Part shown: piece by piece, positions 1,462 to 14,800 of the stretch
Layout of the letters: each line of letters begins with the position of its first letter
How positions within the stretch are numbered: the stretch's first letter is position 1
Virus record (IMG/VR): IMGVR_UViG_2923307698_000005
Reading direction: 5' to 3' (one strand)
From: a virus
Lineage: Duplodnaviria > Heunggongvirae > Uroviricota > Caudoviricetes
DNA length: 16,073 bases
Made by a program: the position numbers and the translations under genes
Notes under the pieces: model-generated
The model's input: the letters and a program-made list of their open reading frames with translations, nothing else
Told to the model about the DNA's origin: nothing
Database searches by the model: none

Positions 1462-1580
1462 ATATGTCCTTTTATCACCATATCAAGACAAGCCATTGAT
1501 TTAATTAAATAATCTTCACTGAAAAAAGTGCCAAAAATCGCAAATTGACTACACCATTAACTACACCGTTCGGTGCACCG

Positions 1581-1610
1581 TATGAAACAACGTGGAACAA
1601 ATAGACACAA
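1581..1610 (+). repeat. Site A: three 10-bp-phased direct repeats with an AACAA core (tatgAAACAA cgtgGAACAA atagACACAA)
   Basis: Read directly. Shares the 15-mer AACAACGTGGAACAA with site B (9049-9063). Confidence 0.4.
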
Positions 1611-1923
1611 GAAATATACAGGCGGATCATCTTTCCAGGGGGAAGCGCACCAATTCATGAGGGGCGTTAATGTCTATATGGGGATCCCCACCTACCGGAA
1701 TTTTTTTCCGGTTAAACGTTAATCAGGCTGGTGGGCTTTACCTGTTCGGTAGGTGTTATGATAATCGTAATACCTTTCCCCCAATGGGGTAAAAGCATCA
1801 ACCGTAACGAAAGTCGTTATGGTTGCCACTGATACCCCAAATTTGGGTATCACGAGTAAGCCCCAAAATCTGGGTGTTACTCTTACTACCCAAACTACGG
1901 GTAGTTTCCGTAGTTTCATGGTC

Positions 1924-7676: not shown

Positions 7677-8834
7677 TTAATCGTCGTCCTGTGGCAGTTC
7701 CAGAATCTTGATCGCGTTCGAATCCACCACGCCACCGCCTAAATATTTCTGCGCGAAAATTTTGATGAAGCCCGGCTCTGTGAGGTTGTCCGGTCTGGTG
7801 CGAACACCTGTTTCGTGATCAACAATGTAGTAACCGCGTTTGAAGTCACCCAGGGCAATAACGTTATCCGGCATAAACTCCAGATATTCGACCGGAAGGC
7901 CCAGCAACGTATCAGGATCACCCGCCTGTAAACGGTCACGCCAGATGTAATCACCGTTCGCGTTCTTCACCTTCTGGAGTTTTGCCGCCGTCGTGGAGTT
8001 AACCACCCAGACCGCGTTTTTGCGGTATTTTTTACGTAATGCAAATTTCAGGTCGATCAGCGGGTCCGCAGATGTCCACGCCAGAGATTCGGAAGGTTTA
8101 ATTACCTGCAACGTACCAAAATCACGCTCTTTGTCGTTCTTCTCTGCACGGGGTACGGATAGAAAGCCTTTTGCTTTTTTGTCACCGTCGCCCACAACCA
8201 GATCGCTTTCTTCGGTTTCCGTGAAGGTGTCGCCAATCTCGCCCGTCAGCCATGAAAGGATGTCCACATCGGAAAAATCCACGATTTCCTGCGTGGTGCG
8301 CGGGTACGCATAGACCGGATACAGCTTAATGCTCACCTCGTTAATCTGCGGGGTGCTGGTCTGTTCGCGTGCCTTACCCTCTTCACCGTGGTTAACGGTC
8401 GCACCGCCAGCGGAAACAAGCTGCTTAAACTCGTTGCTGCTGATTTTCTTCACGGTACAGATGCGGCGCATGGTGGATTCATCCGTCAGCATTCGCATGA
8501 TTTCGGTGTTCAGTTCGGGGATAACGGTATAACCACCATCAGCGGGAACGCCTGTACTTAATGCGCGGGTTTCACCTGTCAGAATGTAGTGACGTAGTTC
8601 GGCGGGGTCAGTGGTCTGGCTGTTTTTGCCTGGTTTACTGCGCTCTTCGTCAGCAACGGCCTCAAGGCGGGAGATGTCTTTATCGAGGGATTCAGCTTTA
8701 GCGCGTAATTCGTCAAATTTTGCGCCCTCAGCATCGTTAAGGCTGCGGTTTTCTTTTTCCGCGTTCTCCAGCATGTCGCGCATCTGATTTTTAATGGCGG
8801 TTTTCTGCTGGCGTAATTCGATTATTCTCGGCAT
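7677..8834 (-). CDS. Major capsid protein, HK97 fold, with N-terminal delta (scaffold) domain (385 aa from the ATG at 8834)
   Basis: N-terminal coiled-coil-like region (IIELRQQKTAIKNQMRDMLENAEKENRSLNDAEGAKFDELRAKAESLDKDISRLEAV) followed by a capsid body. The track ORF extends to a GTG at 8882 with no ribosome-binding site; the ATG at 8834 has AGGA upstream. Confidence 0.85.
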   Translation of the reverse strand: MPRIIELRQQKTAIKNQMRDMLENAEKENRSLNDAEGAKFDELRAKAESLDKDISRLEAVADEERSKPGKNSQTTDPAELRHYILTGETRALSTGVPADGGYTVIPELNTEIMRMLTDESTMRRICTVKKISSNEFKQLVSAGGATVNHGEEGKAREQTSTPQINEVSIKLYPVYAYPRTTQEIVDFSDVDILSWLTGEIGDTFTETEESDLVVGDGDKKAKGFLSVPRAEKNDKERDFGTLQVIKPSESLAWTSADPLIDLKFALRKKYRKNAVWVVNSTTAAKLQKVKNANGDYIWRDRLQAGDPDTLLGLPVEYLEFMPDNVIALGDFKRGYYIVDHETGVRTRPDNLTEPGFIKIFAQKYLGGGVVDSNAIKILELPQDDD

Positions 8835-9044
8835 AAAAAAAGTCCTGAAGTTAAGTAAGGAACTCCAGGACGCGGCAAACACTCAACCGTTTTTCATAAG
8901 GAAATCAGCAATCGCACCGATCGTTTTCCCGCCTGGTAATGAATATTGGCGGGCACATTAACAGGCGGGAAAGTGGCCCCAGCGTCCTGGCACCACGGGC
9001 GAGAATAATCATGATTCAGTTCGGGTAAAATATGCCGATCCGGT

Positions 9045-9080
9045 CAGCGAACAACGTGGAACAACCACGAACAAATAATT
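9045..9080 (+). repeat. Site B: 10-bp-phased GAACAA direct repeats (gcGAACAAC gtgGAACAAC cacGAACAAA) upstream of the capsid operon
   Basis: Read directly. Lies just downstream (minus sense) of the terminator at 9090-9116 and about 200 bp upstream of the capsid start. A candidate promoter (TTGTTC, 16 nt, TATTTT on the minus strand) sits next to it. Confidence 0.4.
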
Positions 9081-9089
9081 TACAAAACA

Positions 9090-9121: not shown

Positions 9122-9394
9122 TTATCTGTCCTGGTAATTTCGCCATATTTCATCACCAGCACCATCCATACCCATTTCGGCATAAGTGCGATCGACCGCC
9201 TTTTTCAGGTCTCCGTAATTATCCGGCGGCTCCGGTGGCCTCTGTGCCTTCCTGGAACATTCCAGCCGTCGCATCGTGATGTGATGCCGTTCCTTGTCTG
9301 TCTCCACCAGTTGCATGACTTCACCCCATCGCGCCGACGCTCTCCGGTAAAAGCCTTTCGCCTCCAGTTCTTCCGCTATGCGGTCATGTACCAT
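9122..9394 (-). CDS. PerC-family transcriptional regulator-like protein (90 aa from the ATG at 9394)
   Basis: Translation MVHDRIAEELEAKGFYRRASARWGEVM...TDKER...RR..CSR matches my recollection of the PerC/Pch signature. The track start at 9403 is a GTG; the ATG at 9394 is preferred. Confidence 0.55.
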   Translation of the reverse strand: MVHDRIAEELEAKGFYRRASARWGEVMQLVETDKERHHITMRRLECSRKAQRPPEPPDNYGDLKKAVDRTYAEMGMDGAGDEIWRNYQDR

Positions 9395-9406
9395 CGTCCC
9401 CACCCC

Positions 9407-9817
9407 TCAGAACGGAATATCATCACCGTAAGGGTCATCGCCTCCCGCTGGTGGCTGATTACCCTGTGTGCCTGTGGTCTTGCGTCGGCTCCCACCAGGA
9501 CGTGCCGCACGGGCACTGATTACGCTGTCTGCAATAACCTGATAACCCTGCCGCGTTTCCCCGTTCTGTCCGGTCCACTGGCTGACCTGCATCGTGCCGG
9601 ATACGCTGGCAACGTCGCCTTTTTGATGTTTAGCCAGGAAGTCGGCCTGCTTACCAAATGCGATGACCGATAGCCATAACGTCGCCTGTCCATCCTGTGC
9701 CTGGCTGCATGGCAGCGATACCGCCATACGCGCCAGCGTCATCGGTGTACCCTTGCTGGTCTGTTTTACCTGCGGGTCGTCCACCAGCCGCCAGTAAGCT
9801 GCAATTTGTGCTGTCAT
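9407..9817 (-). CDS. Single-stranded DNA-binding protein (136 aa)
   Basis: OB-fold-like core (WLSVIAFGKQADFLAKHQKGDVASVSGTMQVSQWTGQNGETRQGYQV), a glycine/proline/glutamine-rich linker, and a C-terminal DDIPF tail as in bacterial SSB. GAGGTGG ribosome-binding site. Confidence 0.75.
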   Translation of the reverse strand: MTAQIAAYWRLVDDPQVKQTSKGTPMTLARMAVSLPCSQAQDGQATLWLSVIAFGKQADFLAKHQKGDVASVSGTMQVSQWTGQNGETRQGYQVIADSVISARAARPGGSRRKTTGTQGNQPPAGGDDPYGDDIPF

Positions 9818-10384: not shown

Positions 10385-10585
10385 CGCAACCTCTCACTTT
10401 TTCGCCTCACTTTTTCAAGCGTCTCACTTCGTCGCAGTTGGGATTTTTGGTTTTTCTATGTGTGTGTTTCATAAGTATTTTTTTACCCCTCACTTTTGAG
10501 GATGTATACAGGTCGAAAAGTGAGGGGGAGCGGGCTAATTTTGGCCCTCTTTCTATCCCCCTCGCTTTTGCTCCTCACTTTTATA
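10385..10585. repeat. Iteron-type replication origin: seven copies of CTCACTTTT (one inverted, one CTCGCTTTT variant) flanking an AT-rich spacer
   Basis: Copies at 10393-10401, 10406-10415, 10423-10430, 10489-10497, 10517-10525 (inverted), 10561-10569 (variant) and 10574-10582. The AT-rich core is 10441-10485. Lies immediately 3' of the replication ATPase gene. Confidence 0.6.
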
Positions 10586-14291: not shown

Positions 14292-14480
14292 TTAATGAAC
14301 TGCCTTGCAGCTATCCTTCCAGGCCAGAACCTCGGATAAAGACCAGCCAACGGAACGACCGCCAAGTTTACGACGTGATGGGAATTGTCCGGCCTTTTCC
14401 AGGCGGTAGCGACACGTACGGCTAAGGCCGGTTAGTTTTTTGCATTCTTTTTCACGTATAAACCGATCAGTGCTTAACAC
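14292..14480 (-). CDS. alpA: AlpA-family transcriptional regulator / excisionase-like protein (62 aa, GTG start)
   Basis: Translation LTGLSRTCRYRLEKAGQFPSRRKLGGRSVGWSLSEVLAW matches the AlpA/Xis-type helix-turn-helix pattern. The ORF has no internal ATG; the GTG at 14480 is preceded by AGGGGG. Lies immediately downstream of the integrase gene. Confidence 0.8.
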   Translation of the reverse strand: MLSTDRFIREKECKKLTGLSRTCRYRLEKAGQFPSRRKLGGRSVGWSLSEVLAWKDSCKAVH

Positions 14481-14750: not shown

Positions 14751-14800
14751 CTTGTTCGTAGTTGTTCCACATTGTTGCTCATTGTTGCACGTTGTATCTG
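14751..14800 (-). repeat. Site C: four to five 10-bp-phased (C/G)AACAA repeats on the minus strand (gtgCAACAAt gagCAACAAt gtgGAACAAc tacGAACAAg)
   Basis: Read directly. The minus-strand string GTGGAACAACtACGAACAA matches site B (GTGGAACAACcACGAACAA) at 18 of 19 positions. Lies 44-93 bp downstream of the integrase stop. Confidence 0.4.

What the first reader, a model, noticed from the sequence alone, without database searches (positions are those of the whole stretch)
9122..9394. PerC-like regulator carried by a satellite sitting next to the phoPQ virulence regulon
The last gene of the early operon resembles PerC/Pch-family activators, which in pathogenic E. coli are prophage-borne and drive expression of the LEE pathogenicity island. 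Here the gene sits on a satellite inserted directly after phoQ. It could act on the satellite's own late operon (the GAACAA array lies just downstream) or on host genes.
Basis: partly seen in the sequence, partly recalled or inferred. Interest (0 to 1): 0.5.

Follow-up and report, generated by a model that had tools for sequence, protein, structure and literature searches.

The report
PchE-type PerC regulator on a capsid-forming satellite
The gene is a genuine PerC-family regulator, the known pchE gene of a capsid-forming phage satellite that inserts next to phoQ, and the nearby GAACAA repeats most likely belong to the satellite's AlpA regulator rather than to PerC.

Summary
Window 9122-9394 (- strand) encodes a 90-aa protein that matches Pfam PerC over its full length (E=3e-43).

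It is the positional orthologue of pchE (ECs_1588) of E. coli O157:H7 Sakai, with 88% identity. In Sakai, pchE lies on "prophage Sp7" between roxA and phoQ. By position, size and gene content this corresponds to the published cf-PICI EcCIEDL933.

The exact protein occurs in thousands of assemblies, always in the order ssb, PerC, capsid operon. PICI-borne PerC homologues are already described, and PchE has been tested. It has little effect on LEE. When over-expressed it represses csgD/curli and induces flhDC/flagella.

Comparative evidence does not support this:
- The same 10-bp-phased xAACAA arrays also sit in the att arm(s) and upstream of alpA.
- The capsid array is retained in four related cf-PICIs that have no PerC gene.
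- PerC-bearing PICIs with other AlpA types lack such arrays.

The AlphaFold model is a TPR/MIT-like helical bundle, with no HTH protein among the listed matches. AlpA, an excisionase-type autoactivator, is the likelier array binder.

Verdict: already known, with low to moderate interest.

The parts
9122..9394 (-). PerC-family CDS of 90 aa, orthologue of pchE (an alternative GTG start lies at 9403)
   Evidence: Pfam PF06069 E=3e-43, full length. 88% identical to Sakai ECs_1588 PchE. 43% identical to PchA. dN/dS 0.28.
9407..9817 (-). ssb gene directly upstream. Its stop lies 13 nt before the PerC ATG, so the two are in the same transcript.
   Evidence: Pfam SSB E=1.9e-15. In Sakai, 5'-RACE places the pchE transcript start upstream of ECs1586, giving a polycistronic ECs1586-ssb-pchE RNA (PMC7369912).
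9088..9115 (-). Intrinsic terminator: hairpin AGCCGGAGCAATCCGGCT followed by TTTTGTCATG. It closes the early/replication-zone transcript.
   Evidence: The hairpin is conserved in all relatives, and is duplicated around the extra gene ECs_1589 in Sakai.
9049..9085 (-). Late-promoter array. On the - strand it reads TTGTAAAT (9085-9078), then TTGTTC three times at exact 10-bp spacing (9074-9049).
   Evidence: The phased pattern has 6 matches in the window against 0.10 expected. It is conserved in 19 of 21 PerC+ and 4 of 5 PerC- relatives.
9027..9032 (-). Putative -10 hexamer TATTTT, 16 nt after the last TTGTTC box. The -35 is weak, which suggests an activator-dependent promoter. This is an inference.
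   Evidence: Read from the sequence. The consensus scan found no sigma-70 promoter here.
7677..8834 (-). Major capsid gene, the first gene of the packaging (late) operon. It lies behind a leader of about 190 nt (counted from the putative -10), which ends in a terminator-like hairpin at 8871-8842.
14752..14787 (-). Second phased array, [G/C]AACAA four times at 10-bp spacing, between the int stop and the alpA start. Its orientation relative to the downstream gene is opposite to that of the capsid array.
   Evidence: It is present in about 70% of loci with window-type AlpA, whether or not PerC is present.
14292..14480 (-). alpA, an excisionase-type regulator and the candidate binder of the xAACAA arrays.
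   Evidence: Pfam Phage_AlpA E=5.7e-17. PHROG annotation 'excisionase and transcriptional regulator'. [quoted passage not shown]
1462..1610 (+). phoQ-side att arm. It contains the core ATATGTCC (1462-1469), ACTACACC twice (1548-1567), and AAACAA/GAACAA/ACACAA at 10-bp spacing (1585-1610).
   Evidence: The int-side arm in L002 has the same layout.
10385..10582 (.). ori-like iterons (CCTCACTTTT in both orientations) between the helicase gene and the next gene. This region corresponds to where the pchE transcript starts in Sakai.
   Evidence: PMC7369912.

Best explanation
The gene is an allele of pchE, the 'group 3' PerC homologue. It is carried by an EcCIEDL933-type capsid-forming phage-inducible chromosomal island (cf-PICI) integrated at the phoQ-roxA att site.

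Shown:
- It is transcribed as the last cistron of the replication-zone transcript (small orfs, ssb, PerC) and is closed by an intrinsic terminator.

Inferred:
- The protein is a small all-helical, TPR/MIT-like protein with no recognisable DNA-reading fold.
- It acts in trans as a modulator of other regulators or of H-NS-type nucleoprotein complexes, as shown for PchA.
- In the orthologue this changes host programmes (csgD/curli down, flhDC/flagella up) rather than activating LEE.
- It is a variable cargo or regulatory gene of the post-replication slot of Gram-negative PICIs, not the activator of the capsid operon.
- The phased TTGTTC/GAACAA boxes in front of the capsid gene are more likely sites for AlpA. 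AlpA is the satellite's excisionase-type master activator, and similar boxes flank the att core and precede alpA itself.
For: Identity:
- Pfam PerC E=3e-43.
- Positional orthology with Sakai ECs_1588 pchE on Sp7, between roxA and phoQ, at 88% identity.
- PGAP names it a PerC family transcriptional regulator.
- The exact protein is indexed in 2434 blocks of the collection. In all six places shown the order is ssb or its position, PerC, then capsid, at the phoQ-roxA and pntB-side sites; the thiM-rcnR element carries a 99.5% identical DNA module.

Published function of the orthologue and family:
- PMC6265319 and PMC7369912.
- PICI PerC homologues are noted in PMC6092414 and PMC11773190.
- PchA acts as an H-NS anti-silencer (PMC4764244).

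Fold:

Synteny:
- PerC is the last gene after primase and ssb/ProQ in the E. coli, Salmonella and Klebsiella/Raoultella-group PICIs examined.

The array is not tied to PerC:
- The arrays also lie in att arms and upstream of alpA.
- L192, L218, L219 and L220 keep TTGTTC x3 before the capsid gene but have no PerC ORF.
- PerC+ PICIs with other AlpA types lack the arrays.
- 79 of 80 cf-PICIs of another capsid clade lack PerC yet keep TTTGTAAAT plus phased TGT boxes.
- alpA over-expression is used to drive EcCIEDL933 reproduction for purification of its particles (bioRxiv 10.1101/2025.02.11.637232).
Against: - The PchE phenotypes come mostly from plasmid over-expression.
- The anti-silencing mechanism was shown for PchA, which is only 43% identical, and not for PchE.
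- The invariant position of PerC at the boundary between the replication zone and the late zone hints at a life-cycle role that nobody has tested.
- PerC could be supplied in trans by another element in the genomes whose cf-PICI lacks it.
- No binding experiment exists for either AlpA or PerC on the arrays.
- A TPR-like model does not exclude DNA binding; PchA gives ChIP signals on AT-rich DNA.
Confidence: 0.6

Rival explanations
1. One reading: the PerC-like protein is the satellite's late activator. It would bind the GAACAA/TTGTTC array just downstream of its own terminator and switch on the capsid/packaging operon.
For: - The gene lies immediately upstream of the array and the late operon.
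- The late promoter has a poor -35, so it needs an activator.
- In the first IMG/VR sample, the TTGTTC array was seen only in PerC+ lineages.
Against: - Four cf-PICIs with window-type AlpA keep the identical array and have no PerC.
- The same boxes occur in att arms and upstream of alpA, which is the distribution expected for an excisionase.
- PerC+ classical PICIs have no such arrays.
- No DNA-reading fold appears in the model.
- Known Pch binding regions are very AT-rich, whereas this promoter region is about 50% GC.
Confidence: 0.08
2. The protein is a virulence regulator of the PchABC/PerC type that activates LEE1 (ler) in a LEE-positive host.
For: - Same Pfam family, 43% identical to PchA.
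- Over-expression of pchE raised ler a little more than 2-fold in one study (PMC7369912).
Against: - The literature on the orthologue reports that groups 2 and 3 (pchD, pchE) are not required for ler/espA expression and have little effect on LEE (PMC6265319).
- The EcCIEDL933 and EcCICFT073 PerC-like genes had no effect on LEE1-lacZ (PMC11773190 citing Porter 2005).
- Another PICI PerC-like protein represses LEE1.
- The exact protein is spread over thousands of E. coli assemblies and sits at several att sites. The pathotypes and LEE status of those hosts were not examined.
Confidence: 0.07
3. The protein serves the satellite life cycle in another way. It could counter-silence the element's AT-rich regulatory region, or bind and neutralise a helper-phage or host regulator, as an ANR-like anti-activator would.
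For: - Conserved terminal position in the early block of the PICIs examined from three enterobacterial groups.
- Weak ANR similarity, NF033650 E=9e-4, and some family members are named ANR by NCBI.
- TPR-like protein-binding fold.
- The lowest-GC part of the element is the int-alpA region, at 0.39.
Against: - PerC is dispensable in many cf-PICIs and is replaced by or combined with a ProQ/FinO-like gene.
- The ANR score is below the curated cut-off (19 against 32 bits).
- pchE expression in O157 falls, rather than rises, on SOS/prophage induction (PMC6265319).
Confidence: 0.2
4. The gene is a decaying, functionless remnant.
For: - The C-terminus is variable, with alternative 82-aa alleles.
- Frameshifted copies exist (P0039, P0033).
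Against: - dN/dS is 0.28.
- The exact sequence is conserved in thousands of assemblies.
- A transcript is documented for the orthologue, and its deletion gives a phenotype.
Confidence: 0.03

Closest known systems
PchE (ECs_1588 / group 3 PerC homologue) of E. coli O157:H7, on prophage-like element Sp7, which by position, size and gene content corresponds to cf-PICI EcCIEDL933
   Same: - Same chromosomal site (roxA-phoQ) and same neighbours (ssb upstream, capsid operon downstream).
- Same length of 90 aa, 88% identity.
- Same terminator and TTGTTC array.
   Different: - 11 amino-acid differences.
- The window lacks the 74-aa gene ECs_1589, which in Sakai sits between pchE and the array, flanked by a duplicated terminator hairpin.
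- The window's replication module is a RepA-type helicase rather than the DUF927 primase.
PchA/B/C of EHEC and PerC of EPEC (LEE1 activators, H-NS anti-silencers)
   Same: - Pfam PerC over the full length; both score about 147-149 bits.
- Conserved LExxG(L/F)(Y/W)RRAAxRW motif, a Cys, and MG(I/L).
- Carried by a mobile element.
   Different: - Only 43% identical to PchA.
- PchA is a cargo gene of a lambdoid prophage, next to lysis genes, and not part of a satellite's early block.
- The orthologue PchE does not share the LEE-activating function.
EcCIMP1_025, the PerC-family gene of PICI EcCIMP1
   Same: A PICI-borne PerC-family protein. The paper also notes the ANR resemblance.
   Different: - About 40% identity to the EcCIEDL933 protein, according to the paper.
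- It represses LEE1-lux in Citrobacter rodentium.
- It is carried on a classical PICI, not a capsid-forming one.
ANR family (Aar-type AraC negative regulators)
   Same: Small helical proteins. There is weak similarity over residues 9-55, and some PerC-family clusters carry the ANR name.
   Different: The score of 19 bits is below the curated cut-off of 32, so membership is not met. No AraC-type partner is encoded nearby.
Excisionase-type regulators with phased direct-repeat sites (lambda Xis, P2 Cox, P4 Vis; recalled from established knowledge, not tested here), as a model for AlpA and the xAACAA arrays
   Same: Arrays of short direct repeats at one helical turn, located in the att arms and at promoters. 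AlpA is of this protein type and activates its own promoter.
   Different: No binding data exist for PICI AlpA. The capsid-promoter array would make AlpA the direct late activator as well, which has not been published in the papers I could read.

Membership tests
PerC/Pch family (Pfam PF06069) | Profile match above the curated gathering score over the whole domain | tested here: met
   E=3e-43, 146.5 bits against 22.6, profile positions 1-89 of 90. PchA scores 149.3 bits under the same test.
PerC/Pch family (Pfam PF06069) | Conserved family residues: N-terminal LExxG(L/F)(Y/W)RRAAxRW, a central Cys, and C-terminal MG(I/L) | tested here: met
   Alignments A4 and A5. R17 and A19 are invariant in both; E11, Y16, R18, W23 and G75 are invariant in A5; C46 is nearly invariant. 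All are present in the window protein.
PerC/Pch family (Pfam PF06069) | Encoded on a horizontally transferred element | tested here: met
   The gene lies on a 14.6-kb satellite bounded by the att core ATATGTCC.
PerC/Pch family, functional sense (LEE1/ler activator) | Activates the LEE1 promoter | not testable with these tools
   The literature on the 88%-identical orthologue PchE reports little or no effect (PMC6265319; PMC11773190 citing Porter 2005).
PerC/Pch family, functional sense (H-NS anti-silencer) | Relieves H-NS/StpA/Hha silencing at AT-rich targets | not testable with these tools
   Shown only for PchA (PMC4764244).
ANR family (NCBIfam NF033650) | Profile match above the curated cut-off | tested here: not met
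   19 bits against a cut-off of 32, E=9e-4, residues 9-55.
Capsid-forming PICI (cf-PICI, EcCIEDL933 type), the carrier element | int, alpA and a replication gene, plus own capsid, protease, portal, connectors, HNH, TerS and TerL; no tail or lysis genes; about 15 kb; a dedicated att site | tested here: met
   ORFs and Pfam results. Annotation of relatives. att site. Definition taken from bioRxiv 10.1101/2022.09.08.507074.
   - The array is present without PerC in L192, L218, L219 and L220.
- Of loci with window-type AlpA and a capsid gene, 4 of 5 PerC- and 19 of 21 PerC+ carry the exact array.
- PerC+ PICIs L145-L153 have no array.

The most novel reading that the evidence does not exclude
The PerC-like protein is not mere cargo but a conserved life-cycle module of Gram-negative PICIs. 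It would be made at the end of the early transcript and would remodel H-NS-type silencing, or titrate a host or helper regulator, so that AlpA-driven late and accessory genes can fire. In doing so it would also reprogramme host motility and adhesion at the moment of satellite induction.
Probability: 0.15. Interest if true: 0.5.

Novelty: already known. Interest (0 to 1): 0.22.

Why it matters
The gene itself adds nothing new. PchE and PICI-borne PerC homologues are in the literature and in routine annotation.

What the check does add is a clearer division of labour inside this satellite:
- The phased xAACAA boxes at the att arm(s), at the alpA promoter and at the capsid-operon promoter point to AlpA as excisionase, autoactivator and direct late activator in one.
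- This leaves PerC as a trans-acting modulator of host or silenced genes.

Both points are directly testable, and they matter for anyone engineering cf-PICIs or interpreting pch genes in EHEC.

Tried and rejected
- My first reading of the IMG/VR sample was that the TTGTTC array occurs only in PerC+ lineages. I abandoned it after sampling by AlpA similarity, which produced PerC-less elements with the same array.
- I considered the array as lambda CII-type TTGN-N6 repeats, a PhoP box (TGTTTA-N5, 11-bp period) or a CpxR box. The spacing and sequence do not fit, and nothing else supports these, so the position next to phoPQ is best read as an att-site coincidence.
- I considered Int arm-type sites. 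The neighbouring ACTACACC repeats change to CTGACCACAC in the element with a different integrase, while the xAACAA boxes stay. The former are therefore the better Int-arm candidates.
- The sequence search of the PDB found nothing.
- Porter et al. 2005 (PMC543544) is not held. Its result is cited only through papers that quote it.
- I could not identify the exact source genome of the window. The best complete E. coli genomes are about 95% identical over 95% of the window.

Full report
**1. Observation.**
The window has an intact - strand ORF at 9122..9403.
- The protein matches Pfam PerC (PF06069) at E=3e-43, 146.5 bits against a gathering score of 22.6, covering profile positions 1-89 of 90.
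- It matches PHROG 994 at E=3e-46, and several PHROGs labelled transcriptional activator more weakly.
- NCBIfam gives only a sub-threshold ANR hit, 19 against 32 bits.
- dN/dS against the Sakai orthologue is 0.28.

**2. Anatomy of the surroundings.**
phoQ occupies 1-1461. All of the following lie on the - strand:
- int (16073-14844) and alpA (14480-14292).
- Small orfs, a DUF4222 gene and a RepA/AAA_25 helicase (11981-10581).
- An iteron-rich, ori-like spacer (10385-10582), followed by two small orfs.
- ssb (9817-9407), then the PerC gene.
- An intrinsic terminator (9115-9098 plus a T run).
- The capsid, protease, portal, head-closure, connector, HNH, terS and terL genes, and a last small orf.

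There are no tail or lysis genes. Comparison with the empty K-12 site shows insertion at the core ATATGTCC, immediately after the phoQ stop codon, in the 75-bp phoQ-roxA spacer. This is the architecture of a capsid-forming phage-inducible chromosomal island (cf-PICI) as defined in bioRxiv 10.1101/2022.09.08.507074.

**3. Identity.**
In E. coli O157:H7 Sakai the same site carries "prophage Sp7; untypable", 15.5 kb. The gene between ssb (ECs_1587) and the head gene is annotated pchE, ECs_1588.
- The window protein is 88% identical to PchE over its full length and 43% identical to PchA, ECs_1091.
- Sakai has an extra 74-aa gene (ECs_1589) between pchE and the array, bracketed by a duplicated copy of the terminator hairpin. 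The window and some O157 relatives lack it.
- The exact window protein is indexed in 2434 blocks of the assembly collection. In all six places shown the order is ssb or its position, PerC, then capsid, at the phoQ-roxA and pntB-side sites.
- The thiM-rcnR element carries a 99.5% identical DNA module.
- 1077 of 5426 complete E. coli genomes match the ssb-PerC-capsid junction.

**4. What is already published.**
- PICIs of E. coli are known to carry PerC alleles (PMC6092414).
- A PICI PerC-like gene, EcCIMP1_025, represses LEE1. That paper states that the EcCIEDL933 and EcCICFT073 PerC-like genes had no effect on LEE1 fusions, and it notes the ANR resemblance (PMC11773190).
- pchE is the "group 3" perC homologue. 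It has little effect on LEE, strongly represses csgD/curli when over-expressed, shows a mild curli phenotype on deletion, and falls on SOS induction (PMC6265319).
- pchE induces flhDC/fliC and motility. Its 5' end maps upstream of ECs1586, so pchE is the last cistron of an ECs1586-ssb-pchE RNA (PMC7369912).
- PchA relieves H-NS/StpA/Hha silencing and occupies very AT-rich DNA (PMC4764244).
- The cf-PICI papers do not mention PerC or pchE at all. They report that alpA is required for induction, and they use an alpA-over-expressing strain to drive EcCIEDL933 reproduction for particle purification.

**5. Family and context.**
An exhaustive HMMER search of 1.84 billion representatives gave only 96 hits at E<=1e-3. 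A profile search gave 265 at E<=1e-5, and those with a source name are all from Enterobacterales; a few are named ANR by NCBI. tblastn finds N-terminal PerC-like domains in Stx phages, SfII/SfIV/SfV, Klebsiella phages and many plasmids.

In the E. coli, Salmonella and Klebsiella/Raoultella-group PICIs examined, the gene is always the last one after primase and ssb and/or a ProQ/FinO-like gene, often overlapping its predecessor. It is not universal:
- 79 of 80 cf-PICIs of a second capsid clade have no PerC-family ORF, even when searched with a broad HMM.
- Some close relatives carry a ProQ/FinO-domain gene in its place.

**6. Fold.**

**7. Test of the idea that PerC acts on the GAACAA array.**
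The three GAACAA boxes (9049, 9059, 9069) are not an isolated feature. The pattern AACAA-N5-AACAA-N5-AACAA, allowing up to 2 mismatches, has 6 matches at three places in the window against 0.10 expected:
- The capsid promoter.
- Four boxes on the opposite strand between int and alpA (14752-14787).
- The phoQ-side att arm (1586-1610).

The int-side att arm, which lies outside the window, has them too in the close relative L002.

In a thiM-rcnR cf-PICI with a different integrase but a 69%-identical AlpA, both att arms carry GAACAA/GAACAA/AAACAA. The neighbouring repeat changes there from ACTACACC to CTGACCACAC, so that repeat follows the integrase.

I then sampled elements by AlpA similarity (87-97% identity):
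- Of 26 loci that include a capsid gene, 21 have PerC. Of these, 19 have the exact array and 2 have one mismatch.
- The other 5 have no PerC. Of these, 4 have the exact array (L192, L218, L219, L220) and 1 is degenerate.
- The alpA-proximal array is equally frequent with PerC (22 of 31) and without it (13 of 19).
- Conversely, the PerC+ PICIs L145, L148 and L151, representing the places returned and carrying other AlpA types, have no such arrays.

So the boxes track AlpA and the att arms, not PerC. This inference rests on three points:
- Phased direct repeats in att arms and at promoters are the classic signature of Xis/Cox/Vis-type excisionase-regulators. This is established knowledge and was not tested here.
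- AlpA is of that protein type.
- AlpA is known to activate its own promoter.

One caveat remains: PerC could be supplied in trans in the PerC-less cases.

**8. Most likely mechanism.**
- Shown: the gene is a PchE orthologue, the last cistron of the replication-zone transcript, closed by a terminator, and under purifying selection.
- Inferred: it acts in trans on host or silenced loci through protein or nucleoprotein interactions, as described for PchA and as seen phenotypically for PchE. It is an exchangeable cargo or regulatory gene of the post-replication slot. The capsid operon starts from an activator-dependent promoter, with TTGTTC as a poor -35 and 16 nt to TATTTT at 9032-9027. AlpA most likely serves that promoter.

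The position next to phoPQ reflects the att site only. A PhoP-box reading fails on spacing.

**9. Verdict.**
The functional hallmark of the family, LEE1 activation, is reported to be absent in the orthologue. The finding is already known, both as annotation and in the literature. Its one new hypothesis, PerC as late activator through the array, is disfavoured. Interest is low to moderate. The by-product, candidate AlpA boxes linking excision, autoactivation and late expression, is the more useful lead.

Noticed in passing
window 1586-1610 (+), 9049-9074 (+), 14752-14787 (-); L002 19443-19477; L001 2085-2110 and 17615-17640: Ten-bp-phased xAACAA boxes occur in both att arms, upstream of alpA and at the capsid-operon promoter. 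They track the AlpA type rather than PerC. They are candidate AlpA (excisionase/activator) sites that would tie together excision, autoactivation and late expression.
   Followed up: yes
window 1548-1567; L002 4549-4568 and 19407-19426; L001 2044-2067 and 17574-17597: A doubled 8-10-nt repeat lies next to the xAACAA boxes in each att arm. It reads ACTACACC x2 here and CTGACCACAC x2 in the element with a different integrase. It co-varies with Int and looks like arm-type Int sites.
   Followed up: partly
window 9078-9085 (- strand TTGTAAAT); loci L046-L143 upstream of the capsid gene: TTTGTAAAT(T/A) followed by phased TGT-containing boxes and a hairpin with a T run is conserved upstream of the capsid gene across diverged, PerC-less cf-PICIs. 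A promoter followed at once by terminator-like hairpins would fit an antitermination-type control.
   Followed up: partly
L003 32170-32394 (Sakai ECs_1589); L047 3013-3273; L052 3457-3717; L192 6721-6966; absent from the window between 9098 and 9122: A 74-86-aa protein with no Pfam match sits just before the packaging operon in many cf-PICIs. It is missing here. In Sakai it is bracketed by two copies of the terminator hairpin, which suggests gain or loss by recombination between them.
   Followed up: partly
L192 6200-6727; L145 7480-8004; L148 7520-8014: A ProQ/FinO-domain protein (Pfam E=4e-25) either replaces PerC or precedes it in the same post-ssb slot of PICIs. This slot appears to collect small post-transcriptional or global regulators.
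   Followed up: partly
window 8842-8871 (-): An 11-bp-stem hairpin followed by TTTTTTT ends at the capsid start codon and contains the only AGGA upstream of it. It could be a leader terminator or a structure that masks the ribosome-binding site. The leader, counted from the putative -10, is about 190 nt long and highly conserved.
   Followed up: no
window 10385-10582: CCTCACTTTT iterons in both orientations, with direct copies about 84 bp apart, lie between the helicase gene and the next orf. This is a PICI-type ori, and by homology it is the region where the pchE transcript starts in Sakai.
   Followed up: partly
window 1462-1469 versus L144 2242-2316 (K-12): Integration separates phoQ from the GTTAAGCATCC...GGATGCTTAAC inverted repeat, which in K-12 lies between the convergent phoQ and roxA genes. 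phoPQ transcripts may therefore read into the satellite's att arm, antisense to its last genes.
   Followed up: no
window 1833-1903 and 2046-2204; L001 2346-2657: The non-coding stretch between the att arm and the last small orf holds a 33-nt imperfect inverted repeat. In relatives it also holds up to four tandem 54-nt repeats containing CCTCAAATTGAGG. Their function is unknown; they could be a cos or pac region.
   Followed up: no
L145 8001-8288 and 12051-12353: One E. coli PICI region carries two different PerC-family genes about 4 kb apart.
   Followed up: no
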